This document shows positions 861-22,197 of a stretch of DNA of 22,197 nucleotides, one piece after another. Numbering within the stretch: position 1 is the stretch's first letter; the number at the start of each line of letters is the position of its first letter. The position numbers and the translations under genes are program-made. The notes under the pieces are model-generated. The model did no database searches. It worked only from the letters and a program-made list of their open reading frames with translations, and was not told the DNA's origin. The stretch comes from Paraspadella gotoi (taxonomy: Eukaryota; Animalia; Chaetognatha): assembly GCA_051294375.1 (NCBI GenBank), contig JBJCIZ010000039.1, forward strand, positions 1 through 22,197. Direction: 5' to 3'.

Positions 861-966
<106 letters not shown>

Positions 967-2257
967 ATTTTAGTTGCTTGGTTTCGCTCGGTTTTTTGCC
1001 TCGTCGATTGAAAATTAAAAACCCTGAATGGATATTTAACAAAATTTAAAAAGGCCTCTTCTTTCTTTTCAGTGTTTTCTTTACCGTGGGAGGTCGAGTT
1101 GCTACTATGGCAACAAAGGTTGCCAGTCTCTTCATTGACAGGATCGAAGTTTAGTGAGACTTTTAAATCGCCGGTCATAAACTGTGAGCCAGATAAATTG
1201 ACCGCTTTTCGTCAGACGAGTCCTCAAACAACTGACGGTATTCAGGGCGAAAGAACGCACAAAGATGGTTTACATGCTTACGAATTTTAACTGGCCACTA
1301 GGGCTTAGGGGAACTCGAAGCGCAAGTTGGTGTGCCGTGCGCGACGCGCCACTTCGGCGAAATGGCTACGGAACTCTGTTAGGAGGAAACTCTTTAGTTG
1401 GGGTTTTAATATTCTCGTAATAATGTTTCTTTCATGAAAGGCGAGACAAGAAAAATGCATAAATTACCCATTTTATCAAAACTGATCGTAATCTGTTTTT
1501 CAAAATCCCTGAACATTTTTTTAATGAATATAAGACTGCGATTGCGGTACGGTTGCTTTTATGACAACAACTACATATTTTGGCATTGCATTTACTGGGT
1601 TGCGTGGTTTAGAGATCTCCCCGATGGTTGCTATGGTCTGGGGTGAATGTAGGGTAGGAATGCGATATTGGGTCAGTTAACGCCTCGCCCGCCCACACTG
1701 TTGCATTTGACTCATAATAGAATCCGACGGACTTTAGAAAAAGAGAATATTAATCCTGAAAATCTCCCTTTGCCTCGGTTCTTACTACATTTTTTAAGTC
1801 GAGAGTTTATTTAGGTTTGTAGTGATTTTTTTTTTTCGTAGTGTCCATTTTGTTTTTAGAAAAGTGTAAAAGAAATTTTGTTTAGATAATCCGTATAGTA
1901 AATTTTTTTCTTTCATTTAGCTATTTTTTTAGAAAATTTTTTTTTCACGTCGTTTAGCGATATAATAAAATTATTTTCGTGCACATTTTCTTTCTCAGTT
2001 TTTTGTTTTTTAAATGCCTCGCGGTAATCTTGACCCATTTCGGAATCCATCGCCACCACTGGGATTTCCCATAAACGCCGAGAAGTTCGACGCCTACGCG
2101 GAATTGATCCAGCAAGAATTATAGAATTAATAAAGGGTGCTTTGGACGAAACTCAAGTTGATCCAGTCCCGCGATCAATCACCATAGACAATATTAGAAT
2201 ATTAAAGCGCCAGGACAATACTCTAAGAATCCGCTGCACAATTCGGACAAATGGACA

Positions 2258-3412
2258 ATGAAGATGAACGACGCGGCTGGCCAGGGAGTTGGCGACAACT
2301 CTAGCTACAGGTATGAAAGAAGGTTGAAAGCCCAACACGAGCAGACTCGTGAAGACATGGACGCCTTTGGTGAGTGGAATCATCGTTATATGGAAAAACA
2401 AACAGATGCTTTTCAACATTTAATTGATTTACAGCATAGGAATCATCAAGAGGATCTAAAGATAATGATGAACAAGATGGAGGAAATGCAAATTTCTCAT
2501 CAGCTTGCTGCTGAAGCAGAAGCCAATGGTGAAAATTAATCTTCCAAAGTACGATGGCGTCTCCGTGGCATTTGAGGATTGGCGGGATAACGTAAGTGCA
2601 ATCTGTAAGTCAAATGGATGGGAAGATGTTAAAAGAATCATGGAAATCCTTCCGTCGTCCCTTACTGGGTCTGCTAAGCGAGCCTTTGAATCTCTTTCAG
2701 GAGAGGAAAAGGAGAATTTGGAAACTATGTTTGTTGGAATGCAGCTGCAACTGATCCCTCGTCGGAAGAAAGGAATCGCCAGTTGTTTGCTTCAGCAACG
2801 AAAAATTCGGGAGAAACTATGACTGCCTTTATCAACAGGTGTAAAATGTATTTAAGAAGGTTTAATATGAATCCGTCATCTGATTTAGCGCTTGAAATGT
2901 GTAAACAAAAACTTCTTTCTAATTGTCGTTCAACAGACAGCCGCATAATTAAAGCAACAGTTTCAAAAAATGCTTCTTTGCAGGAATGGACTCAGAAAGC
3001 GGACGAAATTATTGGGACGAACGATTCGTGCATCGGAGGAGTTACTGAACCCGATGACGCGGCGACGGATAAAAAGGTAAGCTCGGCGTCGTTTAAAGCA
3101 GTCGACAGTAAAAACATAGCTTGGGTCCCGATGGTATATGCTAATAATGAATTTACTCCATATCAACTGCAGCCTGTTCCCATGTCGCCGCCGACTAGCT
3201 TTCAAACTCGGACACGGTCCTCTGTCTCCACGGGCTCTTCAAGCTCCCAACGACGGCCAGGGAATGGAATAACCTGTTGGAACTGTGGAAAGCCTGGTCA
3301 TGTTCGTTCTCAATGTAGAAAAAGATTCACAGGTAATCAAAATACAGAGGAAAATATAAATCAAAGGGAAACTCAAATTGAAAATACAGTACAGAATCCT
3401 TTAAACTCCTAA
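2258..3412 (+). pseudogene. gag: Gag (capsid plus CCHC nucleocapsid), split into three ORFs by two frameshifts
   Basis: LPKYDGVSVAFEDW...LTGSAKRAF capsid-like motif (2505-2822); GETMTAFINR MHR-like motif; zinc knuckle CWNCGKPGHVRSQC at 3275-3316; ORFs at 2258 and 2783 share a frame, 2505 is +1. Confidence 0.85.
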
Positions 3413-3433
3413 AGCCCTCCTATTTAGGAGGGC
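3400..3433 (+). promoter_or_regulatory. -1 programmed ribosomal frameshift signal (gag-pol)
   Basis: T TTA AAC at 3400-3406 in X XXY YYZ phase in gag; 7-nt spacer; stem GCCCTCCT(3414-3421)/AGGAGGGC(3426-3433); -1 frame is open into pol at 3442. Confidence 0.85.
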
Positions 3434-3441
3434 AAAAATTT

Positions 3442-6282
3442 ATGACATCAAGAAAACCTTTTCCGGAATATGAAATAATAAGTTTATTTGCAGAACATGC
3501 TAATGTTAATTCGTTCTTACCAAAGGTTAAGGAAGATTTTTACGACGACCTCGAACAACAACCGTCGGTCTCTTTATTACTTGGAAGCATTAGAGGAATA
3601 CCATTAAATCTCGTAATTGATACAGGTGCGGCCAGGTGCTTGCTACTTTATGAACTATATTGTAAAATAAATCCAGATAACTCTTACATGCTTTATCCTT
3701 ACGACAAATGTTTTGAGGCAATAAATGGTAGTAAGCTTGAGTGTATTGGATTTGCAAAATTACCAACAATATTTTTTGGGATAAAAAATAATTATGAGGC
3801 CACAATTAAATTCTTTATAATCAAGGATCTCGCTGTAGAAGCTTTACTCGGTTTAGATGAAGTCAATCGTCACGGTCTCGTATTAAACGTCGCCCAAAAT
3901 TCTTGTTTGCAGCCAAAAGCTGGGGAACTCATTTTACAAAAGGTTTTTCGAGACCCAATCCAAATCCGTTCGGTGACGGTGGAAAGAGACGTGATGATCA
4001 AACCTCTTTCGCTCGGATGGGTGCCATTAAAGCTTCCAAACTGTCAACGCGGCGTTCTTGGGATAATGGAACCTATTCAGGAATCCTTTACAGGTGTTTT
4101 TATAGCAAATATTTTGTGTTATGAAGAGGATATAATATATGCCAAAGTAGCAAATCTAACAAAGGTTGAATTTCCCTTTTGTCTTGGAGAGGTTTTTGGA
4201 GAATTTTTTCCAATTGAAAATGATTATTTTAATAGGGAAGAATCTAATGCGTTTGGCGTCGGGAATGTGGAACCGCTGTTTGACTCAAGAGGGGAAGAAA
4301 AAGAAAATTTCGACGAAGCTAAGGATCTCGATATGTTCCAGGCGGAGCCGTTGGACGACTGTGATTTTGGATTGGGGAATTCTCCGGCGACCGAGGAAGA
4401 AAAACAAAAGGTAAAAGCAATAATAAGGAAATATAAAGATATTTTTCAAATGGACGGCGTCCCAGTTTCCGTGGCTCACAGAGTAAAGCATAAGATAATT
4501 TTAAAGCCGAATACTAAACCAATTAAACAAAGGATGAGAAGGTTCTCTGATTCTCAAAATGATATTATTGATAAAGAAGTTGAAAAACTGATTTTGCAGG
4601 ACATCGTGGAGCCCTCAACGTCGGAATGGAATAATCCCATCGTTTTGGCGTCGTCACCATACAAACCTAAACCAAGAGTCTGCTTTGATTTACGACAAGT
4701 TAATAAAGTAAGCCTGTCTGACGCTTATCCATTGCCTCACATTGATAAAGTGATTAGCCACTTCTCCGGTATGCGTTATTTTTGTAGCCTCGATCTTTAT
4801 CAAGGATATCACCAGATGGAGTTGGAGAGAGAGAGTCGGCCAATTACAGCCTTCAGTACCCGGCGTGGCCTTTGGCAATTCAAGCGGCTTCCATTCGGAA
4901 TTTCCTCAGGGCCGGCGTCTTTTCAAAGGTTGGTGGAAGATGTGCTGAAAGGATTAAATTGGGAGATTGCTATAGTTTTTATAGATGACATTATTTTATT
5001 TGGTAAAACAATACAAGATGTTTCAGAGAGGTTAGAGATTATATTTCAAAGAATTCGGGATTCTGGTTTAAAATTGCGGGCAGCAAAATGCAGCCTTCTG
5101 CAGGATCATGTTGAATATTTGGGACACGTTATTTCACACCAAGGCATAAAACCCTGTAGGCGCATTGTGTCAGCCATTTTAGATTTTCCTCGGCCGCACA
5201 ATGTTAAAACAATTATGCGCTTCTGTGGACTTTCAAATTTTTATAGAAGTTTTATTAAAAATCACTCTGTCATCTTGGAGCCACTAACCAGACTGACTCG
5301 TAAAAATGTTGATTTTAATTGGACAGATGAATGCGAATCTGCGTTTGGGGCTATTAAAGAAAAGATTGCTCTCATTCCGACTCGACACTATCCTGACCCA
5401 AAGCTTCTCTATGTTTTGTCCTGCGATGCAAGTGCATTTGGTATTGGCGCTGCGCTGCATCAAACAGACTCAAAAGGTAGGTTAAAGGTTTTGGGCTTTG
5501 GATCCCATCTTCTGAAACCATCTGAAAGATTTTGGTCGACAACTGAAAAGGAATTATATTCTATAGTTTATTTCATAAGAAAATTTCGGCATTTTTTGAC
5601 AGGAGTGGGATTTTTAGTTTTAAGTGATCATGGTGCTCTCCGTTATATTAATACTTTAAAAGATTCAACATCGCGAATCGCTCGCTGGTTGAATTTTTTA
5701 CAAAATTTTCATTTTGAAATTCACCATATTTGTGGCACTGCCAATGTTCCTGCAGACGTTCTCAGCCGCGCGCACGAACCTATCTTGGATACGACTCCTA
5801 CAATTGCCCAACAACTTGAAAAACCCATCTTCAAACTTGTGCGTGGGAAATCACCGATCTTTACGGAATTTTTCCGTCTTCAAGCGCCATCAGAAGAGGA
5901 CTTTGACGACGAAGGTAATTTAAGAATAGATAGCGATATAAGGGAAACTAAGATAAAGGAAGAACCCGCTCAATCCGTTTTAAAGAAGTTGGAAAAAGAG
6001 TCTGTCAATGGCTGTCAATCTTGCTGGTTGATTCAGGAAAGAAATTTTCTTTATACCATAGATGAAAAATTCGAGAGCCGAGACGACGACGGAGATGACG
6101 ATGGCGGCGAAAGAAACGTCGTCCACAATGGTCGCAGTAAGGATGAAGAGGGCAACGAAGACTGTTATGGCGACAATGGCGACGGCGAAGTCGCCGATAA
6201 CAGTGAAAACGACGAGAATTGCGGCGTCAATGGTGACGACGGAAATGGCACCACCAGCGATGACGATGGCAGTGAAACATGA
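3442..6282 (+). CDS. pol: Pol: aspartic protease, reverse transcriptase and RNase H with acidic C-terminal tail; no integrase
   Basis: LVIDTGA (protease); CFDLRQVN, DAYPLPHID, SLDLYQGYHQ, LPFGISSGPASFQR, FIDDII (RT); CDAS, EKELYSI, SDHGAL, ADVLSR (Ty3-type RNase H). Probably entered by frameshift at 3406. Confidence 0.97.
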   Translation: MTSRKPFPEYEIISLFAEHANVNSFLPKVKEDFYDDLEQQPSVSLLLGSIRGIPLNLVIDTGAARCLLLYELYCKINPDNSYMLYPYDKCFEAINGSKLECIGFAKLPTIFFGIKNNYEATIKFFIIKDLAVEALLGLDEVNRHGLVLNVAQNSCLQPKAGELILQKVFRDPIQIRSVTVERDVMIKPLSLGWVPLKLPNCQRGVLGIMEPIQESFTGVFIANILCYEEDIIYAKVANLTKVEFPFCLGEVFGEFFPIENDYFNREESNAFGVGNVEPLFDSRGEEKENFDEAKDLDMFQAEPLDDCDFGLGNSPATEEEKQKVKAIIRKYKDIFQMDGVPVSVAHRVKHKIILKPNTKPIKQRMRRFSDSQNDIIDKEVEKLILQDIVEPSTSEWNNPIVLASSPYKPKPRVCFDLRQVNKVSLSDAYPLPHIDKVISHFSGMRYFCSLDLYQGYHQMELERESRPITAFSTRRGLWQFKRLPFGISSGPASFQRLVEDVLKGLNWEIAIVFIDDIILFGKTIQDVSERLEIIFQRIRDSGLKLRAAKCSLLQDHVEYLGHVISHQGIKPCRRIVSAILDFPRPHNVKTIMRFCGLSNFYRSFIKNHSVILEPLTRLTRKNVDFNWTDECESAFGAIKEKIALIPTRHYPDPKLLYVLSCDASAFGIGAALHQTDSKGRLKVLGFGSHLLKPSERFWSTTEKELYSIVYFIRKFRHFLTGVGFLVLSDHGALRYINTLKDSTSRIARWLNFLQNFHFEIHHICGTANVPADVLSRAHEPILDTTPTIAQQLEKPIFKLVRGKSPIFTEFFRLQAPSEEDFDDEGNLRIDSDIRETKIKEEPAQSVLKKLEKESVNGCQSCWLIQERNFLYTIDEKFESRDDDGDDDGGERNVVHNGRSKDEEGNEDCYGDNGDGEVADNSENDENCGVNGDDGNGTTSDDDGSET

Positions 6283-6644
6283 TTAATGATGGTGATGGAG
6301 ACGCTGCCCTCGTCAAAGACTTAAGATATGCACCCCGTGGAATGCTTTTCTTTTGACATTAAAATAATTGATGATTCTTTTAAACAAAACAATTTATTCA
6401 TAAAAATAGTAAAATTAACGTCGTCCGGGGATATATATTTTCTTTTCTCTAAAAGCTCTTTCTGAACATTGTGTTTTTGTCTTAATCAATTCAATTGGCG
6501 AGTTTTGGGATGTTGGCTATTTTGTTGCTCATAAATAGGGCCCATTTTATGTGTAATTGTTTGCCTTCATTTCTTTATTTGTCGCGTGATTTAAATATTT
6601 TTTTGTTTTCTTTGGTTTTGTTTTGTTCCATTTTGCAGGACGAA

Positions 6645-7877
6645 ATGGACGGAGAAGCCGGTACCGATGGAGATATGATGGAGCAAGGCCTTGCGGTGGG
6701 ACAACCAAATTTAGATCCCGTATCTCAAGCGGATGGAACCGTTTTTGCTTTGATTGATAACAATGGGAATGTTATGGAGTGGCTTTTAAATGAAGAGAAT
6801 CCGGGTACAAATGTATCCGAAGAAGTCGCTACTGCTCAACCCTCAAATGAAAGTATTTTTCCAGTCACGATCTCTAAAGGGTTGGTTCAAGAAATCTCTC
6901 ACGATGTAAACTTGGAAAAAAGTTTACCGATCAATGAAAACATTATTTTGCCAGAGGCGATGGGGTTGGACTTGTTGGCGGAAAACAAAGAAAACATACC
7001 CCCGATATTTTCCCCGGTTGACTTTGCAGTGCCGCAAACACTGGTTGATCAAAACCCTTTAAATACTACCAGCAAGCAAGAACGTGGACCTCCCTCACTC
7101 GACAAATTGCCTAAGGAGATTATTTCATTAATTTTTCAGTATCTCCAGCCACATGACGCTTTGCAACTGGCGGCCGCTTGTAAGTCAACCTACGATCTGT
7201 CACCGCTTCGAATCTGTCATAATGACGACATTCCAGGTTGTGGTGGTGACAATTTAATTGTCATTTTGGACAACGTCGACAACTACAAGAGGTTACAAGT
7301 GGCTCTTCAAGAGGGTCGGTTTCAAACTGTGAATGTAATTTTGGCGAGCAACCTGACTGAGTTGGAATCTCCAACCGAGTGGAATAATTTAAAAAAATTT
7401 TTTTGTTATGCAACCCAGGATGGCGTTTTTCCCATTGACAAATTAGAAATATTTCGAGAAGTTGGAGATTGTGGATGTAGACTGGGCATAATTGCTAATT
7501 ATGTTAGATGCCTAATCATGTCGGGTTACCAAGATGTGTATGTTCTGAGAAAGCTAGTAAAAAATCTTATAGGGACTGGGGGTTCATTCACAGAGAAGAT
7601 CGTCTTGACTGGAGAGATCAGCCTACGCGAAGCCACTGGATTAAGGAAGAAGATGCCAACGAGCATCGACCTGGCAATACGGGAAGACCGTCTTATTGTT
7701 CGAGGAGTCGCTGTGGGAAGCCTTAATGCACATATGGAAGGAATAAATATTTTTACGGAAAAAGAAGAATCCAAGTTTGTGCCATCACGTTTGTTTGGAA
7801 TTGACATTGATTTCATGCAGGATGATGTAAGGGTCCCTCTTGCAATTTTAATGGCAAGGGCAGTTTTACTGCGCTGA
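6645..7877 (+). CDS. F-box domain protein (accessory ORF, ~410 aa)
   Basis: LDKLPKEIISLIFQYLQPHDALQLAAACKSTYDL (~7098-7200) fits the F-box consensus; acidic N-terminus; the track's start at 6495 reads through a T-rich tract ending TTTTGCAG(6638), so ATG 6645 is preferred. Confidence 0.75.
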   Translation: MDGEAGTDGDMMEQGLAVGQPNLDPVSQADGTVFALIDNNGNVMEWLLNEENPGTNVSEEVATAQPSNESIFPVTISKGLVQEISHDVNLEKSLPINENIILPEAMGLDLLAENKENIPPIFSPVDFAVPQTLVDQNPLNTTSKQERGPPSLDKLPKEIISLIFQYLQPHDALQLAAACKSTYDLSPLRICHNDDIPGCGGDNLIVILDNVDNYKRLQVALQEGRFQTVNVILASNLTELESPTEWNNLKKFFCYATQDGVFPIDKLEIFREVGDCGCRLGIIANYVRCLIMSGYQDVYVLRKLVKNLIGTGGSFTEKIVLTGEISLREATGLRKKMPTSIDLAIREDRLIVRGVAVGSLNAHMEGINIFTEKEESKFVPSRLFGIDIDFMQDDVRVPLAILMARAVLLR

Positions 7878-8019
7878 GAATCGCTTTCTTCAGTAAAGAC
7901 TGATTGATCAACTTATTGCTCTTATGTTTCTTTTGGTCAAATGTGAAACGAGCTGATTCTCTTTAAAAGTAATAAGCTTTGTTTGCCGTTTTCCCCTTGT
8001 AGGTCATCTTTATCATAAA

Positions 8020-8448
8020 ATGTCAGATATTGTCGCGGAGGCGATGCAAGCGGCACTGATCGCAGATCAAGAATCTCTGGAGACTCTGGAGAACGTCTCC
8101 ACAACACTTGATGAGTTTTGTGCTTCGGGTGGATCAAGCAAGTCGGGGAATCGTGTTGATGAAATGGCGATTCTATCTTTGGAAAAGCCGTTTCAAAAGA
8201 TTCCTGAAGGGACAGTTTTTGTATGTCAAGCTTGCGGCAAAACATTTGGTCAAAAAAAGGGTCTAGACGGGCATAAGCGAGTCCATGGTAAGCATGAGAT
8301 CAAAGAGTCATGGGACAGCGAAACGGAATGCAAACGTTGCCGGAAAACTTTACCTTCCGAAGACTCAGCGATTATCCACGTCTTGAAAAGACACAGGCCT
8401 CAGTTGTACGAGAAACTGAAAGGCGACATTTTGTTCAATACAAAATGA
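8020..8448 (+). CDS. Small two-finger C2H2 zinc-finger protein (142 aa)
   Basis: FVCQACGKTFGQKKGLDGHKRVH (canonical) and CKRCRKTLPSEDSAIIHVLKRH; AAAATG start context; acceptor CCCCTTGTAG ending 8002. Confidence 0.85.
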   Translation: MSDIVAEAMQAALIADQESLETLENVSTTLDEFCASGGSSKSGNRVDEMAILSLEKPFQKIPEGTVFVCQACGKTFGQKKGLDGHKRVHGKHEIKESWDSETECKRCRKTLPSEDSAIIHVLKRHRPQLYEKLKGDILFNTK

Positions 8449-8569
8449 ACGGGTTCTTTAGTGTTTCAGTTCATTGTGACTCATGTATGCAAACTGTGGC
8501 TAGTCCTTGTTTTGCTCGTTTTGATTTTCTTTTTTCAGCTAAAATTAAATCGGTTTTGCATGATCGATC

Positions 8570-9136
8570 ATGGAATGGCTTAACCCTTCAAAGGGTCAAT
8601 TGATGGCTATGATCAATTTTGGCCACAGCCAGGTGCCAATACAGTCGGTTCCACCAATGATAGTTGTCATGATTGAGCACCCTTTAAATATGGCAACCAA
8701 AATAGCCTACGAAATGGCAACAATGGCTGCATCAAATTCATGGCGTCAGGAAGCCAACATTCTTTATTATCTTCTGAGTGGAAACACGAAAGCAATCGTC
8801 AGTGCCCTGGTTAATGTAGAAATAAATGGCATGACAACAAACCTTAAGGATTTGAATTTATTAAGCAACTCACTCGCCCTTACTGAACAATTTCACTCTA
8901 CCATGGTTGGATACCACCAAAGCTCAACCTTGGGCTCAAACGTAAACCCAAGATGGTTTAACTTGTCAGGGATTCTTTTGATGGCTCTACAGCTTGTTGG
9001 GTTGCTAATCAAAGTTTTTTATAAACGAGAAGCCACAAATCTTAATTTATTGTATTTTACGTTTTATCGTGAATGGATGAGAAAGAAAATTGTTGTGAAA
9101 GGAACTACCGTTTTAGTTGATGCCAAGTTTGCATAA
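8570..9136 (+). CDS. Hypothetical protein with a possible transmembrane helix (188 aa)
   Basis: Open 188 codons in AT-rich DNA; hydrophobic WFNLSGILLMALQLVGLLIKVFY followed by basic residues; acceptor TTTTTTCAG ending 8538. Confidence 0.6.
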   Translation: MEWLNPSKGQLMAMINFGHSQVPIQSVPPMIVVMIEHPLNMATKIAYEMATMAASNSWRQEANILYYLLSGNTKAIVSALVNVEINGMTTNLKDLNLLSNSLALTEQFHSTMVGYHQSSTLGSNVNPRWFNLSGILLMALQLVGLLIKVFYKREATNLNLLYFTFYREWMRKKIVVKGTTVLVDAKFA

Positions 9137-9271
9137 AAATTTTTTTGAGTCGATGTGTCAATTCTTGTTGTTGTCTGTATATATATATTTTTTTTTTCCC
9201 TGTTTGTTTATTTCCAGGTACTCTCTTATTCCGTTATTTTTTTTCTCGAACACTCGCACCTGCAAGAGAAA

Positions 9272-10465
9272 ATGTCGGGAGAAGAAGCAACCAGGTCGCG
9301 ACAAGCCCTTGAAAACAAAGTTCGCGAGCAGCGGACAGAAATAAACACTTTGAAAGTATCGCTTGAGCGGGCCGAGCGTGACGTATCTTTCTTACGGACG
9401 CGCCTTCGCCATGAAGAACATGAAATGAATCATCTTCGATCGTCTCTTCGCCTTTGTCATGAGACATTAAGTTCTGCAATAAATCCACCCTCAGGTGGAA
9501 CATCGCGACCATCAAGTTATGATGGTTATCGTCAAGGGGAGCGTCGCTCAATGATTCCGCGTCAGAATCGTTTTATTCAGAAACGTCCGCAATCAGCCTC
9601 AACCCCGGAGCGTGATCGAATCCGGAAAACCTCTCTGTCTCCGGTTCCGCGGAAAAAAGCTGAAAGAAGCAAGTCGCCTGAATACACGGTGGAAGATTTG
9701 CAAGAAGCAGATGAGCGCCGTCTCTCGATCAACTTAAAGGCAAGAGAAATCTTGGCTAAAGATCAAGATGACAACGGGCGAAAGCGATCAGGAGCACGTT
9801 CCCAAGAGTGTCGTCGTCGAGATACCGAGCGCAAGGACGACGATCGTAGAAAGGAAGATACGGTAGTAATTCCGAAACAAAAGCCACCGGAAAACCAGGA
9901 ACAAAGTCGAACAGAAAAAGAAAAGAAAGCAAAGAGAAAAGACAATGAGAAGACCGATAGCGAATCCGACCTGTCGCTTATTGCCCGTTGTTCGGACGTC
10001 GACATGATAAACCTAAGTCTGGGCTCCAACCTCCCGTCATCGCCAAAAGAGCCGACATCCTACCAGGCCCTTGAAATGGCCCCGCCTTCGTCTTCCAAAG
10101 GCAAAAAGTCTTCCAAGGAACCAAAAAAATCGGTGGATGAAGGGAGCGTAAGGCATATGCTCGACCTACTGAAGAAGTACAAGGATAAGGCGGATTGCAA
10201 GGAGCCGACGCATCAATTTGGGCAGCATTTTGCTCGCCGTTTGGCCCAAAAACGAAAATATCTTTCCATTAAAGAATTTCTCAAAGATAATTGCAAGTGC
10301 TGTGGCCTAGATCATCAGGAGGAAAAAAGATGTGAGCCTAGATGTCCAAGTTGTTGGCATAAACACCGTGGGCATAAAGGCCCATGCTGTCAATGCATAG
10401 TTGATTGGAATGAGGAATTAAAGAAACTATGGGATAGACTGGCGTCCTCGAGCTCTGGAGATTGA
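9272..10465 (+). CDS. Coiled-coil, R/S/K-rich protein with Cys/His-rich C-terminus (~397 aa)
   Basis: Heptad-like LENKVREQRTEINTLKVSLERAERDVSFL; charged low-complexity middle; CKCCGLDH...CEPRCPSCWHKHRGHKGPCCQC; upstream in-frame part (9155-9271) is T-rich with TTTCCAG ending 9217. Confidence 0.7.
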   Translation: MSGEEATRSRQALENKVREQRTEINTLKVSLERAERDVSFLRTRLRHEEHEMNHLRSSLRLCHETLSSAINPPSGGTSRPSSYDGYRQGERRSMIPRQNRFIQKRPQSASTPERDRIRKTSLSPVPRKKAERSKSPEYTVEDLQEADERRLSINLKAREILAKDQDDNGRKRSGARSQECRRRDTERKDDDRRKEDTVVIPKQKPPENQEQSRTEKEKKAKRKDNEKTDSESDLSLIARCSDVDMINLSLGSNLPSSPKEPTSYQALEMAPPSSSKGKKSSKEPKKSVDEGSVRHMLDLLKKYKDKADCKEPTHQFGQHFARRLAQKRKYLSIKEFLKDNCKCCGLDHQEEKRCEPRCPSCWHKHRGHKGPCCQCIVDWNEELKKLWDRLASSSSGD

Positions 10466-10556
10466 GTTCTTTAGCTTTTCAGTTCAATTGCTTGGGTTCA
10501 ATTTCTTGGGTTCTGGAGATTGAGTTCTTTAGCTTTTCAGTTCATTTGCTTGGGTT
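10454..10556 (+). repeat. ~45-bp direct duplication (period 58) spanning the stop codon of the Cys-rich ORF
   Basis: TCTGGAGATTGAGTTCTTTAGCTTTTCAGTTCA(A/T)TTGCTTGGGTT at 10454 and 10512. Confidence 0.9.
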
Positions 10557-10785
10557 TGCGTTTTGGTTACAAAAGTCTTGTTTTTAGTTGGTTTTTTTTT
10601 TTTTTTTTCTTCTTTTAGTCAATTGTGTTCTATCTGTACGTTTTAAAATATGTGAAATGAAAATTTGACATTTGTCCTTTCACTTACTTGTTTCATTTAT
10701 CTTCTGTTAGGAAGATCATCATCATCATTATGATTATATATTGTTGCACAACAACCTTATTTGAAAATGACATTTTTATATTCAG

Positions 10786-12375
10786 ATGGAATTATTCAGT
10801 GAAAATATTTTTACTGTGTTTGAAGATGAACATTACGCCGCTATAAACGTTAAAAGCCATCAAGCCACGGATCCCGAGTTGACTACAATTGTCAACATAA
10901 TAAATGAGAAAACTGAAACGCTAGAGAAATCCCTACTGCCGTGGCGAAATTCGTTTAAACAACTCTGTGTTGAAGATGGTATTCTGTACAAGGCAACTAC
11001 CAATGGTCTCGTGTTGGTCGTCCCAAAATCTCTGCGCACTAAAATTTTACATCGCGTTCATGGCTCGAAGTGGGCATCGCATTTTGGGATCAACCGGAGC
11101 TATCATGTTTTAAAAAGCAGGTATTTTTGGCCTTTAATGCTTAAGGATTTAGAAGAGTTTATAAGTCAATGTGAAGAATGTTTAAGGCGAAAGAACCCAG
11201 TAAAATCACAAAGTTCCTATTCTCAACCTATTAATTTTGCTTCCACACCAGGAGAGGTTATCGCACTCGATGTTAAAGGCCCTTACATTACGAGCGAAAA
11301 AACGAATGCCTATCCTTTTGAATGCCGGTTCTGCCTCGTCATCGTTGACTACGCCAGCAGGTATTCTATGGCGATTCCGTGTGAAAATGTAAAGGCGGAG
11401 GTGGTGGTTGCGCATTTGTTTAATCGCTGGTTTCCTTTGTTTGGTCTCCCGACGAGAATAGTAACGGATAATGGGCGAAATTTTAAATCTAAGATTATTA
11501 AATATATGTTACAGTGTCTTCAAATTGATCATAGTTTTACTGCCATTTATCACCCTCAGTCTAACGGGTTGTGTGAATCAATCAACAGAGTACTGGGCGG
11601 GATTCTTTCTTCCACTATTGACGGCACTGTGGAAAAATGGCCCAGCTTCATCGACGCCACCATGCTGGGATACAACTCGGCTCCCCAAGAAACAACAAGA
11701 GTCTCCCCAAATCACATTATCTTTGGGCGCGAGTTGGTTCAACCACTGGACATTGTGTTTAACACAAATCCGTATTCGAAGGTAAAAATATCAGTAGACA
11801 AATATATAATTGAAAGAAATACATTAAGGGAAAAAGCTTTAAATTTTGCAATTTTGAATACATCTATGTCGCAGGAAAAAACGGCAAAACGTCTTGCAAA
11901 TGAAAAGGTAATCAACGATTTGGAGCCGGGCGATCCTGTTGCTTATAAACTGCCCAGAAAGAAAAACAAACTGAAACCAAAATGGGAAATTAACTATAAG
12001 GTAAAAAAGAAAATTTCGCCATTGACATATGTAATTAGTAATGATGTAAAATCAAAAGTAGTTAATCGATCTCTGTTGAAAAAAGTTCCACCAAAATCAG
12101 AACTTTCCTCATTTGATATTGTAAATTTAGGAAATTTGACCTCGACAGCCAAAGCCGAAAAAACAAAAGATCAAGCTGACGACATTGCCTGGAATCCAGA
12201 CGTTTCAAGTTCGGGTGAAGACGACGCCAGTGATAGTAAATGTGAAGATATCAATGACTGGTCATTCGGTAATAAAGATCATGGCGCGGAACCAACGACT
12301 CTTAATACTTCTTTAACTAAAACTCTACGTAACCGCGATAACTTGAGAAAGCCAAGTCGTTATGAGAAATATTGA
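10786..12375 (+). CDS. Gypsy-type DDE integrase as a stand-alone ORF (529 aa)
   Basis: HHCC zinc domain (HGSKWASHFG...CEEC); ALDVKGP, VTDNGRNF, YHPQSNGLCESINR (D,D,E); GPY/F-like KLKPKWEINYKV; ATG directly after TTCAG. Confidence 0.95.
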   Translation: MELFSENIFTVFEDEHYAAINVKSHQATDPELTTIVNIINEKTETLEKSLLPWRNSFKQLCVEDGILYKATTNGLVLVVPKSLRTKILHRVHGSKWASHFGINRSYHVLKSRYFWPLMLKDLEEFISQCEECLRRKNPVKSQSSYSQPINFASTPGEVIALDVKGPYITSEKTNAYPFECRFCLVIVDYASRYSMAIPCENVKAEVVVAHLFNRWFPLFGLPTRIVTDNGRNFKSKIIKYMLQCLQIDHSFTAIYHPQSNGLCESINRVLGGILSSTIDGTVEKWPSFIDATMLGYNSAPQETTRVSPNHIIFGRELVQPLDIVFNTNPYSKVKISVDKYIIERNTLREKALNFAILNTSMSQEKTAKRLANEKVINDLEPGDPVAYKLPRKKNKLKPKWEINYKVKKKISPLTYVISNDVKSKVVNRSLLKKVPPKSELSSFDIVNLGNLTSTAKAEKTKDQADDIAWNPDVSSSGEDDASDSKCEDINDWSFGNKDHGAEPTTLNTSLTKTLRNRDNLRKPSRYEKY

Positions 12376-12440
12376 TTTCTGTTGTGCTTATTAGACAATT
12401 GGAGTTTTGTTCAAATTTTTTCTGCTTAAATTTTAAATAG

Positions 12441-13436
12441 ATGCCGCGAGAAATTATCAATGATCCGGCCGGGCGCGACCCTAAATTCCTCCCAATAACC
12501 GAGAAAACTTTCATGGGTATTAACTTTAAAGTAAGATGGGAAGAAAGTAAAAGAAATTGTTTGTACAGGACGCTCGCCTCAGGCGTTTTTGGTGGGACGA
12601 AAACTTATAATGAAGTAAAGAATGAGATTATTTACTACGCTAAAAACAATTGGGATGCTTTTGCGCCAATGATCAAAGAGCTTCATGGGATAATTGAATA
12701 TAAAGAGTACGCCACGGCTCTTCAACTCAATCTCCATAGTCCTCGAGAATCTGAGGTTTTGATCGCAACGGAAGCTTTTAAGACTCCGCTCATCGCCATT
12801 CCTTCGGCTCGAGACGATTTCCTTGCGTTTAATCTAAGAAAGTTTACAAGTCGGCCCGTCTTCTTTCTCCTTTCCGCTTTTTTCGACGACGACGTGCGCG
12901 CGTGTTGGCTGCACGCAGATTCGTTGGAGCCGGCAAGACCCCTTACGCGAACGGAGGCACTACGAATGCTTGATCCCCGTGACGAAGGAACACAATTTCT
13001 TGAGACAGGATGTCCAGTTGATTTTAAAGCTGCGGAATTTAAATTACTGTATCGTCTAAAAGTCGTCGAAAATGAATCACTTTGCTCATGGAATGGACTT
13101 CAGTTAAATCCTTGCAAACAAAACATTTTAATGAGCATGAATGTGTTCAGCATTCCCCCGCAACCGGACTCATGGCCTCACCGTATGACGCGTCTTGTCA
13201 TGAACAACCTGTGGCAGCAACACCACGCGCCATTCTGTTCACTAACAGTTGCTTTTGAAAATATCATACTCAGAACGTATATGATGCGAAACGGTGATCG
13301 TGGAAGAAAACTTACATTCTACGATATAGTGGGAGATGAGTGCGCCTTTTGTCTTCATTTTGATGTTGGCGTCAAGTGGGCAAGATCTCCGGTAGAAAGA
13401 AAAGGATCGTTTTTACATTCAGTCTCATCATTTTAA
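12441..13436 (+). CDS. OTU-like cysteine protease (deubiquitinase-like) domain plus unknown C-terminal domain
   Basis: RNCLYRTLASGVFGG..YNEVKNEIIYYAKNNWDAF resembles OTU DGNCLFRA..; ESEVLIATEAF resembles the E-L-x-A helix; WLHADSL resembles HYDSL. Confidence 0.6.
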   Translation: MPREIINDPAGRDPKFLPITEKTFMGINFKVRWEESKRNCLYRTLASGVFGGTKTYNEVKNEIIYYAKNNWDAFAPMIKELHGIIEYKEYATALQLNLHSPRESEVLIATEAFKTPLIAIPSARDDFLAFNLRKFTSRPVFFLLSAFFDDDVRACWLHADSLEPARPLTRTEALRMLDPRDEGTQFLETGCPVDFKAAEFKLLYRLKVVENESLCSWNGLQLNPCKQNILMSMNVFSIPPQPDSWPHRMTRLVMNNLWQQHHAPFCSLTVAFENIILRTYMMRNGDRGRKLTFYDIVGDECAFCLHFDVGVKWARSPVERKGSFLHSVSSF

Positions 13437-13942
13437 TGACTGTAACGGAAGTTGTTGTGAACAACGAATATGCCACCAGCATTTACAGGCACGGGAGATC
13501 CTCAACGGCGTGTAACCGTTCAGATGAAAAGATATGTTGCCAATGCGGGAGGATGATGCTGGAAAAGATTGGAATCGATATGTCCGGGACGAGAGAAGTG
13601 GACGAATGGGTCTCTTCCCTCTTTATTAATCGGAGGTATTGTTCAAGAGACAATGTTTTTCGCGTACAACGCTACCTCGCTCTTGAAGCCCTCATGCCGA
13701 AAGGGGCGACGTTCCACCCCCTCTTCGTGGCTCTTCTTCTCAGCTATGGACTCGATTATCTACTAAAATTGAAAGCCGTTCAAAGTGACGCCTTCCTAGA
13801 AAACCAATGGTCAAAAATTCGATCGCTATTCACCGAAGAACGTCGTCTCAAAACGTATCAAGGAATGTACGTTGTCGAGGGAGTCTATCAGACGGGTAAA
13901 ACGCGCCGACGATTTCTTACTGTTGAGCAACAATGGGAATAG
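13436..13942 (+). CDS. Hypothetical protein (~168 aa) with N-terminal Cys/His cluster
   Basis: ATG 13436 overlaps the upstream stop (TAATG); HGRSSTAC...CCQC; acceptor TTTTTACATTCAG ending 13422; AATAAA downstream at 14095. Confidence 0.6.
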   Translation: MTVTEVVVNNEYATSIYRHGRSSTACNRSDEKICCQCGRMMLEKIGIDMSGTREVDEWVSSLFINRRYCSRDNVFRVQRYLALEALMPKGATFHPLFVALLLSYGLDYLLKLKAVQSDAFLENQWSKIRSLFTEERRLKTYQGMYVVEGVYQTGKTRRRFLTVEQQWE

Positions 13943-14326
13943 TTTTTAAATTTTTTTGTGTAGTCAATTTTAATTCGTTTCAAGTAATCTTTGAGGACGA
14001 TTTTATTTTATATACTTTGCCTCGTCATTTGTTCTATGAAAATTTTATTTAAACGTCGTCAATTGTCATGAGTAAAATTCTATCCACGTTTAAAAATAAA
14101 AAGAATTCTTTGTCCTCCACTTGAGTAAAATTAAAGCAAATCCTTAGTCAGCATTTATAATTAAGAAGGGAATTCGAAGTGGTACAGGAAATAAATAATC
14201 GTCATTAATAAATTAAATATAACCATGATAGGATCTTAGCCTGTAGGACTATCGCGGCGGTTTGGTGTTCTGCCCGGCGGATACGTCGATCTAAGAAATT
14301 CTCAGCGCTCATTGATAGTAGTCGTT

Positions 14327-14456
14327 CTGGTCGGGGAGAGTTGCAACCTTTTCATCACCCTGTTCCGGACTCCTGGTCGGGGAGAGTCGCAGCCTTTTCG
14401 TCATCCTGGTCGGGGAGAATCATTATTTCGTGACTCGGAATCCTGGTCGGGGAGAG
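14327..14456 (+). repeat. Four copies of CTGGTCGGGGAGA with related spacers
   Basis: Copies at 14327, 14373, 14406, 14443; fifth partial copy TGGTCGGGGAG at 15243. Confidence 0.9.
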
Positions 14457-14835
14457 ATCTCCGATATCACCTACAATTTACACACATTACAATAGGAACT
14501 AAAGACTAAAGACGTCATCAAATTAAGGTGAAGATTTTGATTTATTAATACGTCTCATTGGTTTGTTTTTTTGTTTTTTGTTTTTTTTGTTTTTTTTTGG
14601 TTTTGTTTTTACAGATAAGTTTTTAGAACTGTGTTTCTGTAAAAATTTTTTTTTTTAAGTGCGTCTCTCTGTAAAATTGTCGTTTTTGTTTTTTTTTGTG
14701 TGGGTTTTCTAGATTCTTTAATTTGCCTCTTTAGATTGTATCTCTGTCATTAAAGGTAAGTATAAGAGATAGATTCTTAAAACAATACTGAATAAGATTG
14801 AGATTTTATCAATCCCATTTGTATAAAGTAGTAAA

Positions 14836-15207
14836 TCATTTTAAGTCCAATTGATTTTTGTACCGTTTCATTAGTGGGCATATTATTAGATTACCATGCG
14901 GTTCTATATTGTTTAATAGTTTAATTAATTCATGGTTAATTTTGTGATGACTTGATAGAATAATTATGTTATTAATGATTGAGAGTTTATCTCTATCTTG
15001 GGTGACCTTTTCATAACTCATAAATACTTTATTATTCAAAGGTGAAATCCATGGTCGAATTGGACAAAGGAAGTACTCCCATGATAGAATTCCATATTTC
15101 ATATACCTGAGCCCCACTCCTATATAAGTTTTTAGTAACTGTGTCTCTGTAATTTCTTTTCTTTTTTTTATTGAAATGAATATTTTTGTAGCAGGTGCCG
15201 TTGCCAA
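14836..15207 (-). CDS. Possible antisense hypothetical protein (123 aa)
   Basis: Open 123 codons in very AT-rich DNA; no recognisable motif; non-ATG start in the track. Confidence 0.25.
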   Translation of the reverse strand: MATAPATKIFISIKKRKEITETQLLKTYIGVGLRYMKYGILSWEYFLCPIRPWISPLNNKVFMSYEKVTQDRDKLSIINNIIILSSHHKINHELIKLLNNIEPHGNLIICPLMKRYKNQLDLK

Positions 15208-15257
15208 GTCTTAGGGTTGTAGTTTTGGGGACCAAAACCGGGTGGTCGGGGAGGATG

Positions 15258-15421: not shown

Positions 15422-15446
15422 NNNNNNNNNNNNNNNNNNNNNNNNN
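15422..15446. other. Assembly gap (25 N)
   Basis: N run. Confidence 1.
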
Positions 15447-15783: not shown

Positions 15784-15828
15784 GAGCAGACATGTTTCGG
15801 CTCACAATACGAGCCTTCTTCAGCGCAC
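15784..15828 (-). ncRNA. Minimal type I hammerhead ribozyme, Penelope-like-element/retrozyme style
   Basis: Minus strand reads GTGCG-CTGAAGA-A-GGCTC(gtattgt)GAGCC-GAAA-CATGTC-TGCTC: CUGANGA and GAAA cores, 5-bp stem II, palindromic ACATGT stem III, GUC cleavage triplet; AATAAA follows. Confidence 0.75.
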
Positions 15829-17254: not shown

Positions 17255-18730
17255 GTGAGTATGACGAGGCCTACGCCGCAAGGCGATGGCAGGAGTGAAA
17301 CCTTGGCAGAAAAAACTGGTTATTTCAACAATCCTAACAACGTAAACGGACGCGGGGTACGATCGTTCCTCAACAATTTACAAGCGGAGTTAGAATGTTT
17401 TAAGATCGCGTATCATCAAGCCAAGGTTGAGCTCTCGGTTCGAACCGCTCACAAAGCTAACGGAACCTGAGAGCGAGTTTGGACGTTATTTCTTGAACTG
17501 TCACGTTTTATTGCACTGCACCCATCTTTCTAAACCGATCGTGTGCGTAGATATTTAAACGAGGAATCACCTGAATCCGTACCGTACGTCGTAGGGAATT
17601 GTCCTATTGTTTTTTATATTGAATTGAGTGCCGCGTCAAAGTCGAATCTGGAAGCTAAAGAAGAGGAAGGGGGGGAAGAGGAATTAGTTACCGTTGAGGA
17701 GCTGACGGGATCGCCATGTTCCCCCACAAAAAAAAACCCACCTTTGCGTCATAGTAGTCCGTTGCCGCGCGTACGAAACTGGTTGGAGTCGACGCCGGAC
17801 TCGTCCGAATCACCGCGTGCGGAGGAGGAGACGCCCATGTCGCCGGCCCACTCTAGAATAAGCGTCGTGTCGTCAAGGAGAAATACCACGGCCACTACGC
17901 TCTCACCACGGTCATCACGTGAGACCGTGCGTCGAAGGTTAGTCGAAGAGCTGGAAAACATGGAAAGAAAAAAATTGGAGTTGGAGGCGAAAGAACAGAG
18001 GATGAAAATGAAAGGGAACAGGTCGAACTTAATTTTCAAAAGAAAGAGACGGAAATGGAGGAAAGAATGATGAGGGAAAAATTAAAGCGTATAAACGAAA
18101 GCAGTACTGACGAGTAAGGCGTAGTAAAATTTCTAAATTTAACTTTATTAAAATTTTAAAAGTGGGGAACGAACAACATTATATTAATAAACATTTATGT
18201 AATAACAAAATTTATAATAAATTTTACAATTTACGCAGTAGGCCATATTTATACTAGTACTAAACCAATAAATGTTAAAATTTCAAAACAGTTTTTTTCT
18301 AAGATTTTTTGCAGATTTGGATTCGTCATAAAAAGTTGATATAAAGAAATATAATTAATTCTTTTTGAAAAATTCCTTTATTAAGTGGTCAAAAATTAAA
18401 AAAAGCTATACTTAAGCTGAAAATTAATTTTTATATATTAATATAGTTTTTTTAATTTTTTAACCTACTTAATTGAAAGAATTTTAAAAATGATTTATAT
18501 TTTCTTTTATCAACTTTTGACGAGGAATTTAAATCTGAATTAAAATTGAGAAAAGCCTATTTTGAAATTTTTCGATTTTATAAAGAATAAAAAAACAAAA
18601 AAATAATTTTTTTTACAAATTAATGTTCATTGAAGGTATGTTGTTCATAATTGACTTTTAGAATTTTCGTATGTAACTTTCACTACGCCTTACTGACGAG
18701 GTAACACAGGCTGCCACACAGGCACTATGA
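17255..18730 (+). pseudogene. Decayed ORF with Ser/Arg-rich segment and Glu-rich coiled coil, interrupted by a MITE; possibly a retroelement gag N-terminus
   Basis: SRISVVSSRR..SPRSSRETVRRRLVEELENMERKKLELEAKEQR continues after a frameshift as EKLKRINESSTDE and, past the MITE, VTQAATQAL*. Confidence 0.35.
18115..18692. mobile_element. 578-bp foldback MITE with 8-bp TSD (hAT- or P-type)
   Basis: Ends TAAGGCGTAGT / ACTACGCCTTA are perfect inverted repeats; TSD CTGACGAG at 18107-18114 and 18693-18700; interior is an imperfect palindrome (e.g. AAAAGTTGATATAAAGAAATATAA vs TTATATTTTCTTTTATCAACTTTT). Confidence 0.92.
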
Positions 18731-19209: not shown

Positions 19210-20238
19210 CGTTCAATATGAAATAAAGAAAAAATTTCAATTAAAGAGAGCAAGGGAAAATTTGAATCAATCAATCAATCAGTATATAATCAAATTGCAA
19301 AGTCACTTAGACAGAAAATTTAATTCGTAAAATTAAAAAATTCCTTTAGACAAATTTGAATCACAAAAATTTTCGTTAAAAAATGAGTGAATTTGAAATA
19401 TCTTGCCTAATTAAACTTTGAACAGAGAGGGACGGCACCAAAGCAAACAAAATGACAATTAACCAATCATAAATTCGTTGAATAATCAATCACTAAATCA
19501 GCTAATCGAATCAATAAATCAATGCATTAATCAATAAAATCAATCGGTCAATTAGCTAATCAATCAATCAATCAATCAATCATCGATCAGACTCACCTTT
19601 TGGATTGATGTTTTCCGGTTCAAAGGGTTCCGTTGTCAAGCTTGGAAAACAAATTTAGTTCAATACAAAAAACAATCACAAAACCAACTCACCTTTCCGA
19701 AGCGATGTATACTTTCTTACTGTAGAGAAGCTTGGCTCTCTACGCCTCTTGAGGTGAGAATGGTCCACTTGGTCGCAACGTAATCTGACGAAAAGTATCC
19801 CAAACGTTTGTGTAACTGAAGCTCGAAAATGTCGGAAGGAAAAAATGCGGGAATCAAAGTAAATAAATGTAATAAATCAAGGCAAAATCCGTAGAAAATC
19901 GAGGTAAATCAATGATGAATCAAAATGTCGTATAGAGAAATCCAATAATCGTAGAAGAATCTTCAGTAAAAACGTAGTAGGAACTTTGTAAGAAAGTAGT
20001 TGACGGTCTCTCTAAAATGTGATCCAGTGAATCTAAATCTGTCCTGTTTGGTCTCGTCCAAGTAAAGTTTGGAGAGAGAAAGAGAGAGAGGGAAAGAAAG
20101 AGTGGAGAAAGAGTCGGGTCAGTCTCTGGCCGGTCGATCGGTCAATCGGTCGAATGGGTCAGATCTGGCCGTCTCCGTCGGTCTCGGCCTTTTCTCTTCA
20201 GTATCAGAGAGTACTCTCTCGCGGAAGGGGCAAAAAAG

Positions 20239-21062
20239 ATGAACATTCTTACCATGTGCGGCAACAAGTCCTTTGGTGGTTGCGCCGTTTGCGGTTGTGG
20301 CGATGGGGAAAGAAATCCCATAGTTTCCGCCGTGACGTTGGATCCTCAAGAGTTCAAGGAGCTTCGATTTCAGTCCAACGCCGTCCTTCATCATGCCCTG
20401 GAAATGTCGACCAAGGTGTGGGAAGTCGCTCCTGACAATAAAAGTGAAACGGTCAAAAACGTCAATGCGATGGTCACCTCGTGGCTAAAATGTGGACAAA
20501 AGGGATCCAGGCTGTATATGGCCTTGGTTAACAACTGTGGTCAGGGCGAAAACCAAGTTCCTCTAATGACCTGTTATCCCATGGGTCGAGATGAATTCCT
20601 ACGACCACGCCTTCCCGGTCACTTTTGCTGTTCGTCCTTGAAGGCGACGGAGACGGCTCGAGAAATCGTTTCGGGCTTGCCCGAGCCCGCCGCCGCTTCA
20701 CCCGAGAAGAAGAAGAAAGAATCTTCGCCTAAGAAAAAAAGGGGGGCGCAGTTGGTGGGAGTTAAAAAAAAAAAATAACAACGACGACAAAAAAAAAAAA
20801 AAGATCCTACGACGGGGGGCAACCGATTCAAAGTTACTCTATGAGGCTCGCCAATCCTCCCAACGATACCCTAGTCAATTTAGAAACCCCCGGAGGGTGG
20901 AACGAAACATTCGTGGGTGATTTAGCTTACCAGCAGCAGCAGCAGCAGCAGGGAATCGTCGACGATTGCGATGAACAACGGCAGCTGGTTGAAATGGAGC
21001 GTTCGGTGGATCAGCTTCTTCGCGAGTTGGAGGAGAAAAATGTGGGCCAAGCTGAAAATTGA
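20239..21062 (+). CDS. Hypothetical Cys-containing protein with basic NLS-like motif; likely one gene broken at A-homopolymers (20239-20778 plus 20841-21062)
   Basis: GC-richer coding-like island; CAVCGC, HFCC, SPKKKR; break falls in A-runs at 20764-20802; poly-Q from a CAG repeat; acceptor TTTCTCTTCAG ending 20201. Confidence 0.45.
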
Positions 21063-21460
21063 ACTTGGGTGAAGGGGGGAGAAAAAAAAGATTAATAAAT
21101 GTATATACAAATTATTAGTTTGCGTTTTTTTCATTTGCTAATATATGTTTAAAAAAAAAAAAAAGTGTCTTTCTTTCTTTCTTTCGTTACAAAGCGACTA
21201 CAAAAAAAAAGGGGGAAAAATGGATGGTATATCCCACGTTAGTTACCTATATTAAAAATGGAGATGAGAATCCCCTACGTGAGGAAAAAAAAAAGTAGGA
21301 AATTTTAGTAAATGTTACGTGAATTTTAGTAGACAATTTTAGTTAAATATTAACAAAGTATTTTAGGAAAAAGAGAAAAAAATCACGGAATAACTATTAA
21401 CAAAGCCACTGGTCACGTGACAAAGACAAAAGAAAAAAGAAAAAAGAAAAAAGAAAAAAA

Positions 21461-22078: not shown

Positions 22079-22197
22079 GGTCACGATCGTTACAAAAGGA
22101 TAATTCTGAGAAAGAATTAAAAATTGGATATATATTAAATACGAAGAGAAAACAAAAAAAAAGAGTCACAATCAGTACAAAAGGATGATTCTGAGAA

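What the first reader, a model, noticed from the sequence alone, without database searches (positions are those of the whole stretch)
6645..7877. F-box protein carried inside a retrotransposon
Seen: convincing F-box motif after an acidic, disordered N-terminus, followed by an unrecognised alpha/beta or LRR-like region. Known: F-box domains bind Skp1 to recruit substrates to SCF E3 ligases; the polerovirus P0 F-box-like protein promotes Argonaute degradation. Inference: possible anti-silencing effector that removes a host restriction or piRNA factor.
Basis: partly seen in the sequence, partly recalled or inferred. Interest (0 to 1): 0.75.

Follow-up and report, generated by a model that had tools for sequence, protein, structure and literature searches.

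The report
Retrotransposon with ubiquitin-tool accessory genes
A jumping gene related to retroviruses carries an intact F-box gene and five other extra genes, has its integrase split off as a separate gene, and likely uses the F-box protein to send a host protein, not yet identified, for destruction.

Summary
The F-box is real. It passes Pfam cut-offs, the ORF is intact in runs of two further studies, and a relative at 24% identity keeps the F-box region plus C-terminal domain in gapless register. That domain models as a likely LRR-type solenoid, so the protein resembles an FBXL adaptor, not polerovirus P0.

A Ty3-like gag/PR-RT-RNaseH ends in a stop. Four intronless ORFs follow (F-box, C2H2 zinc finger, two unknown), then the integrase as its own ORF, then an OTU-like ORF and one more. 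Most start just after a T-rich spacer and AG. The nearest integrase relative starts at the same Met, with no RNase H upstream.

In one probable RNA data set, 15 GT-AG joints cut through gag, pol, integrase and the last ORF and remove catalytic residues. One contig links spliced pol exons to the F-box. The spliced form holds a 432-codon stop-free run, possibly a CERV-like overprinted protein.

No LTR pair was found. Skp1 binding and the substrate are untested, and nothing supports Argonaute or piRNA targeting specifically. Verdict: a new, complex variant of Ty3/gypsy-like element.

The parts
6645..7877 (+). F-box protein: acidic N-terminus, F-box (aa 152-185), predicted LRR-like solenoid
6600..6638 (+). 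polypyrimidine tract and CAG acceptor 6 nt before the F-box ATG; predicted, and not used in the one contig that crosses it
   Evidence: rank 4 of 751 AGs on a matrix trained on the 15 joints seen in contigs; X7 record 10 reads through
2258..3412 (+). gag region in three frames in the window; CCHC knuckle; laid contigs differ from the window by small indels here
3400..3440 (+). slippery heptamer plus 8-bp hairpin: candidate -1 gag-pol frameshift signal
   Evidence: hairpin -16.1 kcal/mol; pol frame open from 3382
3442..6282 (+). PR-RT-RNase H followed by an acidic tail and stop; no integrase
   Evidence: RT-RH best match Ty3, E 6.5e-76
2370..6061 (+). 12 GT-AG introns seen in contigs of X7/X8; the exons give a 432-codon stop-free run, partly in non-Pol frames
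8020..8448 (+). C2H2 zinc-finger ORF; an X7/X8 contig begins exactly at 8003, the base after its predicted acceptor
8570..9136 (+). 188-aa ORF of no known family, hydrophobic C-terminal stretch
9272..10465 (+). 397-aa ORF: R/S/K/E-rich, Cys/His-rich C-terminus, no known family
10786..12375 (+). integrase as its own ORF (H2C2, DDE core), ATG directly after CAG; two in-frame introns seen in contigs, one removing two catalytic residues
12441..13436 (+). OTU-like cysteine protease ORF (Cys40; candidate His158/Asp160 read from the sequence); 3' end uncertain because contigs show indels
   Evidence: OTUD1 E 0.0029; no Pfam hit
13436..13942 (+). 168-aa ORF with a 108-nt intron seen in contigs; frame uncertain (indels in contigs)
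14163..14172 (+). short purine run, weak polypurine-tract candidate; no matching LTR pair found
   Evidence: sequence

Best explanation
The ORF is an intact F-box gene inside a large Ty3/gypsy-like element, and it likely works as the element's own accessory protein, predicted to bind host Skp1 and use an LRR-like domain to bring a host protein that limits the element to an SCF ligase for destruction. Shown: F-box, position between RNase H and integrase, a conserved relative, one contig joining spliced pol exons to the F-box. Inferred: the element works like a complex retrovirus. Unspliced RNA would give Gag and, by -1 frameshift, Gag-PR-RT-RH. Integrase and the cargo ORFs would be made from separately processed RNAs through their own acceptors (cis-splicing from an upstream donor, or leader trans-splicing; not resolved). 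The OTU-like protease would remove ubiquitin from element proteins. My odds by step: element-borne F-box gene 0.85; working SCF adaptor 0.7; a host substrate whose loss helps the element 0.5; that substrate being Argonaute or a piRNA factor 0.15-0.2.
For: Pfam cut-offs passed. P0007 aligns without gaps over 129 aa from the F-box into the C-terminal domain at 24% (its own F-box score is weak, E 0.078). P0001-P0003 cover the rest of the domain at 27-29%. Model pLDDT 64.8; the best 13 of the 50 rows shown score Z 8.0-8.7 and are mostly LRR proteins, one being an SCF ligase-substrate complex. F-box and LRR proteins of giant viruses recur in the viral list. ORF intact in studies P2 and P3. Integrase relative P0008 (40%) aligns from the same Met with no RNase H upstream. 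Six cargo ORFs share strand and short T-rich spacers. No shared 11-mer direct or inverted repeat at the cargo block's edges. Precedent: planarian Burro elements carry ubiquitination-related domains (PMC6431247 passages).
Against: No Skp1 or substrate test. No LTR pair. One copy only and no genome held, so no copy-level selection test. The context of the relatives is unknown: two metagenome and three viral scans gave no informative locus. The LRR call is middling: rmsd 3.8-5.7 A, Foldseek prefers TIM barrels at TM 0.2-0.36, and residues 1-56 of the model, including the F-box, are under pLDDT 50. The one contig crossing 6638 does not use that acceptor. Acceptors at 8002, 10785 and 12440 rank only 165, 151 and 431 of 751. 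No listed contig piece bridges 10483-10775, so the cargo-integrase link rests on the window assembly. X7 and X8 look like one data set filed twice, and its RNA status is a guess.
Confidence: 0.5

Rival explanations
1. Self-directed use: the F-box protein degrades an element-encoded protein, either to limit Gag, integrase or the zinc-finger protein, or as the antidote to a toxin among the unknown cargo ORFs, making the element addictive.
For: F-box antidotes that act through SCF are shown for nematode selfish elements (PMC12680543 abstract). Three neighbouring ORFs have no known family.
Against: No cargo ORF matched a toxin family; neighbourhood alone is weak evidence.
Confidence: 0.17
2. Passive cargo: a block of host or foreign genes was inserted between RNase H and integrase of an ordinary gypsy element and does nothing for it; the splicing is host disarming of a dying copy.
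For: F-box genes sit in TE-rich regions in nematodes (PMC12062965 passages). Gag is frameshifted in the window and no LTRs were found. The splicing removes or splits PR, RT, RH and IN catalytic motifs. Cargo GC3 (0.40-0.49) is a little above gag/pol/IN (0.36-0.37).
Against: Integrase has its own AG-ATG start, matched in P0008; pol stays open for about 165 codons past RNase H; cargo lies on both sides of integrase; no duplication or inverted repeat at the edges.
Confidence: 0.15
3. Composite locus: an integrase-less retroelement next to a Ginger1-like DNA transposon (gypsy-type integrase plus OTU), with the F-box block belonging to either.
For: Ginger1 transposases carry OTU domains and introns (PMC2836005 passages). 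No listed contig piece bridges 10483-10775.
Against: No inverted repeats around the integrase-OTU block. OTU is a separate ORF after a stop that X5 and X7 contigs also show. The split falls at the usual RH-IN linker and keeps the gypsy order.
Confidence: 0.1
4. Decoy: the protein binds Skp1 but recruits nothing and dampens host SCF activity in general.
For: For polerovirus P0 the role of Skp1 binding in suppression is itself unsettled (PMC6593998, start of abstract in listing).
Against: The C-terminal domain is conserved to the last residues in relatives, as expected of a substrate-binding surface.
Confidence: 0.08

Closest known systems
FBXL proteins (F-box plus LRR; Skp2 and FBXL3 names recalled)
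   Same: F-box followed by a predicted beta/alpha solenoid; SCF-complex entries appear in the fold lists
   Different: No LRR Pfam match, 8-15% identity in the top rows, conserved CGC motif, long acidic N-terminus, intronless and carried by a mobile element
C. elegans Cer1 and CERV (PMC3315495, PMC10309623)
   Same: Gypsy element whose gag-pol RNA is multiply spliced, with or without SL1, to give a protein using a second frame
   Different: Cer1 has five exons and integrase in the polyprotein; here at least 12 introns in gag-pol, a separate integrase and six cargo ORFs; no sequence link to CERV was tested
Planarian Burro giant gypsy elements (PMC6431247)
   Same: Large gypsy elements with ubiquitination-related extra domains and accessory ORFs
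   Different: Burro packs most domains into one polyprotein and has long LTRs; no F-box in the passages read
Bdelloid rotifer LTR elements with ORF3 (PMC5408684)
   Same: Captured non-env ORFs, typically expressed from spliced messages
   Different: One ORF3 after pol; no F-box in the text (0 occurrences)
Ginger1 DNA transposons (PMC2836005)
   Same: Gypsy-type integrase without RT in its ORF, OTU, introns
   Different: Ginger1 has TIRs and a fused OTU, and no gag or RT
Polerovirus P0
   Same: Parasite-encoded F-box-type protein (analogy of function only)
   Different: P0 has only an F-box-like motif (listing); no sequence or fold link found here

Membership tests
F-box proteins | F-box domain above curated cut-off | tested here: met
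   PF12937 28.4 vs 24.3; PF00646 21.7 vs 20.5
F-box proteins | Binds Skp1 and assembles an SCF | not tested
FBXL (F-box + LRR) | C-terminal LRR solenoid | tested here: inconclusive
   Top Z 8.0-8.7, rmsd 3.8-5.7 A, 143-170 aligned, mostly LRR proteins; Foldseek unclear; no LRR Pfam hit
Ty3/gypsy (Metaviridae) | Ty3-type RT-RNase H | tested here: met
   Ty3 E 6.5e-76; next family 1.1e-54
Ty3/gypsy (Metaviridae) | Order gag, PR, RT, RH, IN | tested here: met
   Order kept on the DNA; PR read from its DTG motif, no Pfam hit
Ty3/gypsy (Metaviridae) | Integrase inside the Pol polyprotein | tested here: not met
   Stop at 6282; integrase ORF starts 4.5 kb later
Ty3/gypsy (Metaviridae) | Flanking LTR pair with target-site duplication | tested here: not met
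   Self-BLAST and local alignments at shuffle level; holds for this copy in this window, which has an N gap near 15423. Filed as Ty3/gypsy-like, not as a member
Ginger1 DNA transposons | Terminal inverted repeats of 40-270 bp | tested here: not met
   No shared inverted 12-mer; none in self-BLAST
Ginger1 DNA transposons | OTU or Ulp1 fused to the transposase | tested here: not met
   Separate ORFs, stop at 12375
OTU deubiquitinases (ORF 12441) | OTU fold with Cys-His-Asp/Asn | tested here: inconclusive
   42-aa match to OTUD1 around the Cys, E 0.0029; no Pfam or Atlas hit; not folded
Polerovirus P0-type silencing suppressors | Homology to P0 | tested here: inconclusive
   Not among the 50 rows shown of at least 500; no Pfam match
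Polerovirus P0-type silencing suppressors | Argonaute degradation or silencing suppression | not testable with these tools
   Needs a cell assay

The most novel reading that the evidence does not exclude
An unrecognised lineage of 'complex' invertebrate retroelements built like an operon. Integrase and six accessory genes are each released from one long RNA by their own splice acceptors, possibly by leader trans-splicing. An overprinted multi-exon regulator hides in gag-pol, and a paired E3 adaptor (F-box-LRR) and deubiquitinase (OTU) rewire host ubiquitin to defeat germline defence.
Probability: 0.25. Interest if true: 0.9.

Novelty: new variant of a known kind. Interest (0 to 1): 0.72.

Why it matters
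Whether animal retrotransposons carry dedicated counter-defence proteins, as lentiviruses and plant viruses do, is largely open (own knowledge). An F-box adaptor is bait that names its target by one pull-down, so the question becomes testable and could expose an unknown host restriction factor. A gypsy-type element with integrase expressed apart from Pol, and with gag-pol spliced at a dozen sites, would also widen the known expression strategies. LTR-based annotation tools would split or miss such an element.

Tried and rejected
No genome held. Single-sequence homologue search: 0 of 5353 candidates. Single-sequence fold unusable, pLDDT 38. Neighbourhood scans: none confirmed; one search gave one locus, L001, an unrelated decayed gypsy. 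No RNA holder on record; X7's RNA label is a guess. A second laying of reads gave no result, so the letters at contig starts, 2 of 17 joints and a DNA-source control for the joints remain unseen. I first read 14 extra letters on X7 record 11 as a leader at 8003; the record is on the minus strand, so they lie at the other end: rejected. The only leader hint left is 22 unseen letters before the 1957/1958 site. Troyka/Kuafuortervirus considered from memory as a split-integrase group: the parts read do not describe that; no tree was built. HGPRT, ribosomal and PCNA hits and the Rfam hit at E 0.39 taken as chance. Atlas hits 0.83-0.93 only echo 'F-box' or unnamed clusters. The acceptor null (0 of 20000) compares with mostly coding ATGs, so it partly measures T-rich spacers. 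My 13421 coordinate was not an AG and got no rank. Complex prediction not run: no Skp1 at hand, and a textbook pair. Earlier-findings look-ups were empty.

Full report
Observation. ORF 6645-7877 encodes 410 aa. Residues 152-185 pass both Pfam F-box cut-offs and align weakly to the FBXW7 F-box (E 0.84). The first 148 aa hold 25 acidic and 5 basic residues. An in-frame ATG at 6510 exists, but it precedes a T-rich tract whose AG at 6638 ranks 4 of 751 on a matrix trained on the 15 joints seen in contigs, so 6645 is the likelier start (inference). X7/X8 cover 6060-7549 and X5 covers 6362-7397 and 7408-9129, with one substitution in the ORF and no gaps.

Relatives and fold. A search of 1.84 billion representatives gave 3 hits (27-29%); a profile search added P0007 (4 of 5436 candidates, three of them profile members). 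All are unnamed proteins from 1.1-3.1 kb JGI/ENA contigs. P0007 aligns without gaps over 129 aa from the F-box to a conserved CGC motif, although its F-box scores only E 0.078. The architecture has therefore lasted over long divergence (inference); whether the relatives sit in retroelements is unknown. With a 4-sequence alignment the model reached pLDDT 64.8, good over about 60-240 and poor over the F-box. Of 48,161 chains, the best rows (Z 8.0-8.7, rmsd 3.8-5.7 A) are mostly LRR proteins by title or by my recall; the tool warns that such Z can reflect a common arrangement, and Foldseek lists TIM barrels at low TM. LRR-like is favoured, not proven.

The element. Gag lies at 2258-3412 in three frames with a CCHC knuckle. 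A slippery heptamer and hairpin sit at 3400-3440 in the frame for a -1 shift into pol. Pol has RT and RNase H closest to Ty3, then an acidic tail and a stop at 6282. Four ORFs follow (F-box, C2H2 finger, 188 aa, 397 aa), then integrase at 10786-12375, an OTU-like ORF (OTUD1, E 0.0029) and a 168-aa ORF. Six spacers of 65-356 nt are 41-57% T. Acceptor ranks: 6638 4th, 8538 15th, 9217 32nd, 10785 151st, 8002 165th, 12440 431st of 751, so three are strong and three are not. Integrase and OTU ATGs follow an AG directly. The best of 29 integrase hits, P0008, aligns from the same Met and has 50 upstream residues with no RNase H match; one relative on a 1.4-kb contig is modest support for a conserved split. 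No LTR pair, TIR or edge duplication was found, so I file it as Ty3/gypsy-like only.

RNA evidence. Nine runs of three studies hold the stretch; I laid 4 of the 11 listed. X7 and X8 have near-identical figures and count once. Of 17 joints 15 were shown, all GT-AG, all in X7/X8, none in X5 or X9: 12 in gag-pol, 2 in integrase, 1 in the last ORF. Introns are 65-398 nt. They split the protease DTG and remove the RT FIDD, RNase H residues and two integrase catalytic residues, so this RNA cannot make the enzymes. Record 10 joins pol exons to 6060-7549, tying the F-box to pol on one molecule, but reads through the 6638 acceptor. Record 11 begins exactly at 8003, the base after the predicted acceptor. 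An X9 contig appears to begin at the base after the AG at 1957, and X7/X8 carry 22 more unseen letters there; SL1 is 22 nt (PMC3315495), so this is a hint of trans-splicing and no more. A processed DNA copy is not excluded, since no source-DNA run was laid. The host is not identified; the acceptors are looser than the C. elegans type.

An overprinted frame? Tracing phase across record 10's exons gives a 432-codon stop-free run from exon 3 to 11, using non-Pol frames in exons 5 and 8-11. For exons 4-11 the run is 417; 24 of 2827 random GT-AG chains reached it (3000 drawn, 173 dropped as overlapping). Six of 7 pol exons have an open non-Pol frame against backgrounds of 0.11-0.31 (P about 3e-4). 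This recalls Cer1's CERV, a spliced, partly out-of-frame protein needed for genomic RNA export (PMC10309623). Against: in the window's sequence the gag-phase reading stops in exon 3, the five alternate-frame pieces scanned match no Pfam family, and NMD filtering of cryptic isoforms could give the same pattern.

Mechanism. From established SCF biology, an F-box binds Skp1 and an LRR domain binds substrate. A gene of this kind kept intact in a retroelement, near an OTU-like protease, most simply serves the element by removing a limiting host protein (0.5). Rivals are a self or antidote target (0.17), passive cargo (0.15), a composite with a Ginger1-like unit (0.10) and a Skp1 decoy (0.08). Nothing here points to Argonaute or piRNA factors in particular.

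Literature. Seen: PMC12440569 (part 1 of 5 and one passage), PMC11673190 (part 1 of 3), passages of PMC6431247, PMC3315495, PMC10309623, PMC12062965, PMC2836005, PMC5408684; abstract and outline of PMC12680543; listing of PMC6593998. No supplements were read. Searches listed no paper whose title, abstract start or read passages describe a gypsy element with F-box cargo or a stand-alone integrase ORF after RNase H; most listed papers were not opened, and Repbase and subscription journals were not searched, so prior annotation is possible.

Verdict. Observation confirmed; interpretation partly supported; new variant of a known kind; interest 0.72.

Noticed in passing
window 862-962: About 100-nt poly(A) run just upstream of the element's 5' region; may be another element's tail or an assembly artefact.
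   Followed up: no
window 8453, 10466, 10524: A 23-nt T-rich motif (87-91% alike) follows the stops of the zinc-finger and 397-aa ORFs; TCAWTT is enriched in spacers (12 matches in 1255 nt of spacer, against 18 in all of 2258-13942). Possible 3'-end or splicing signal.
   Followed up: partly
window 14320-14456: Four copies of a 21-nt unit, covered by an X7/X8 contig that runs to 14554; may belong to an unpaired 3' terminal region.
   Followed up: partly
window 14763-15250: High-copy repeat with many variant contigs and loose ends in all four runs, then 60-nt tandem units and an N gap near 15423.
   Followed up: no
window 15785-15826, minus strand: CTGAAGA-stem-GAAAC arrangement like the minimal hammerhead of Penelope-like elements (motif recalled); fold z 0.01 and no Rfam hit.
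   Followed up: partly
window 20023-20775 and 17534-18067: Open frames of 251 and 178 codons outside the element; the ATG-started 179-aa part of the first has only a sub-threshold BRCT match.
   Followed up: partly
window 21414-22197: About 306-nt tandem unit, 92% alike, running off the window's end.
   Followed up: no
window 1042-2752 and 12889-13804: Laid contigs differ from the window mostly by small indels, suggesting assembly errors or a variant copy; ORF limits there are uncertain.
   Followed up: partly
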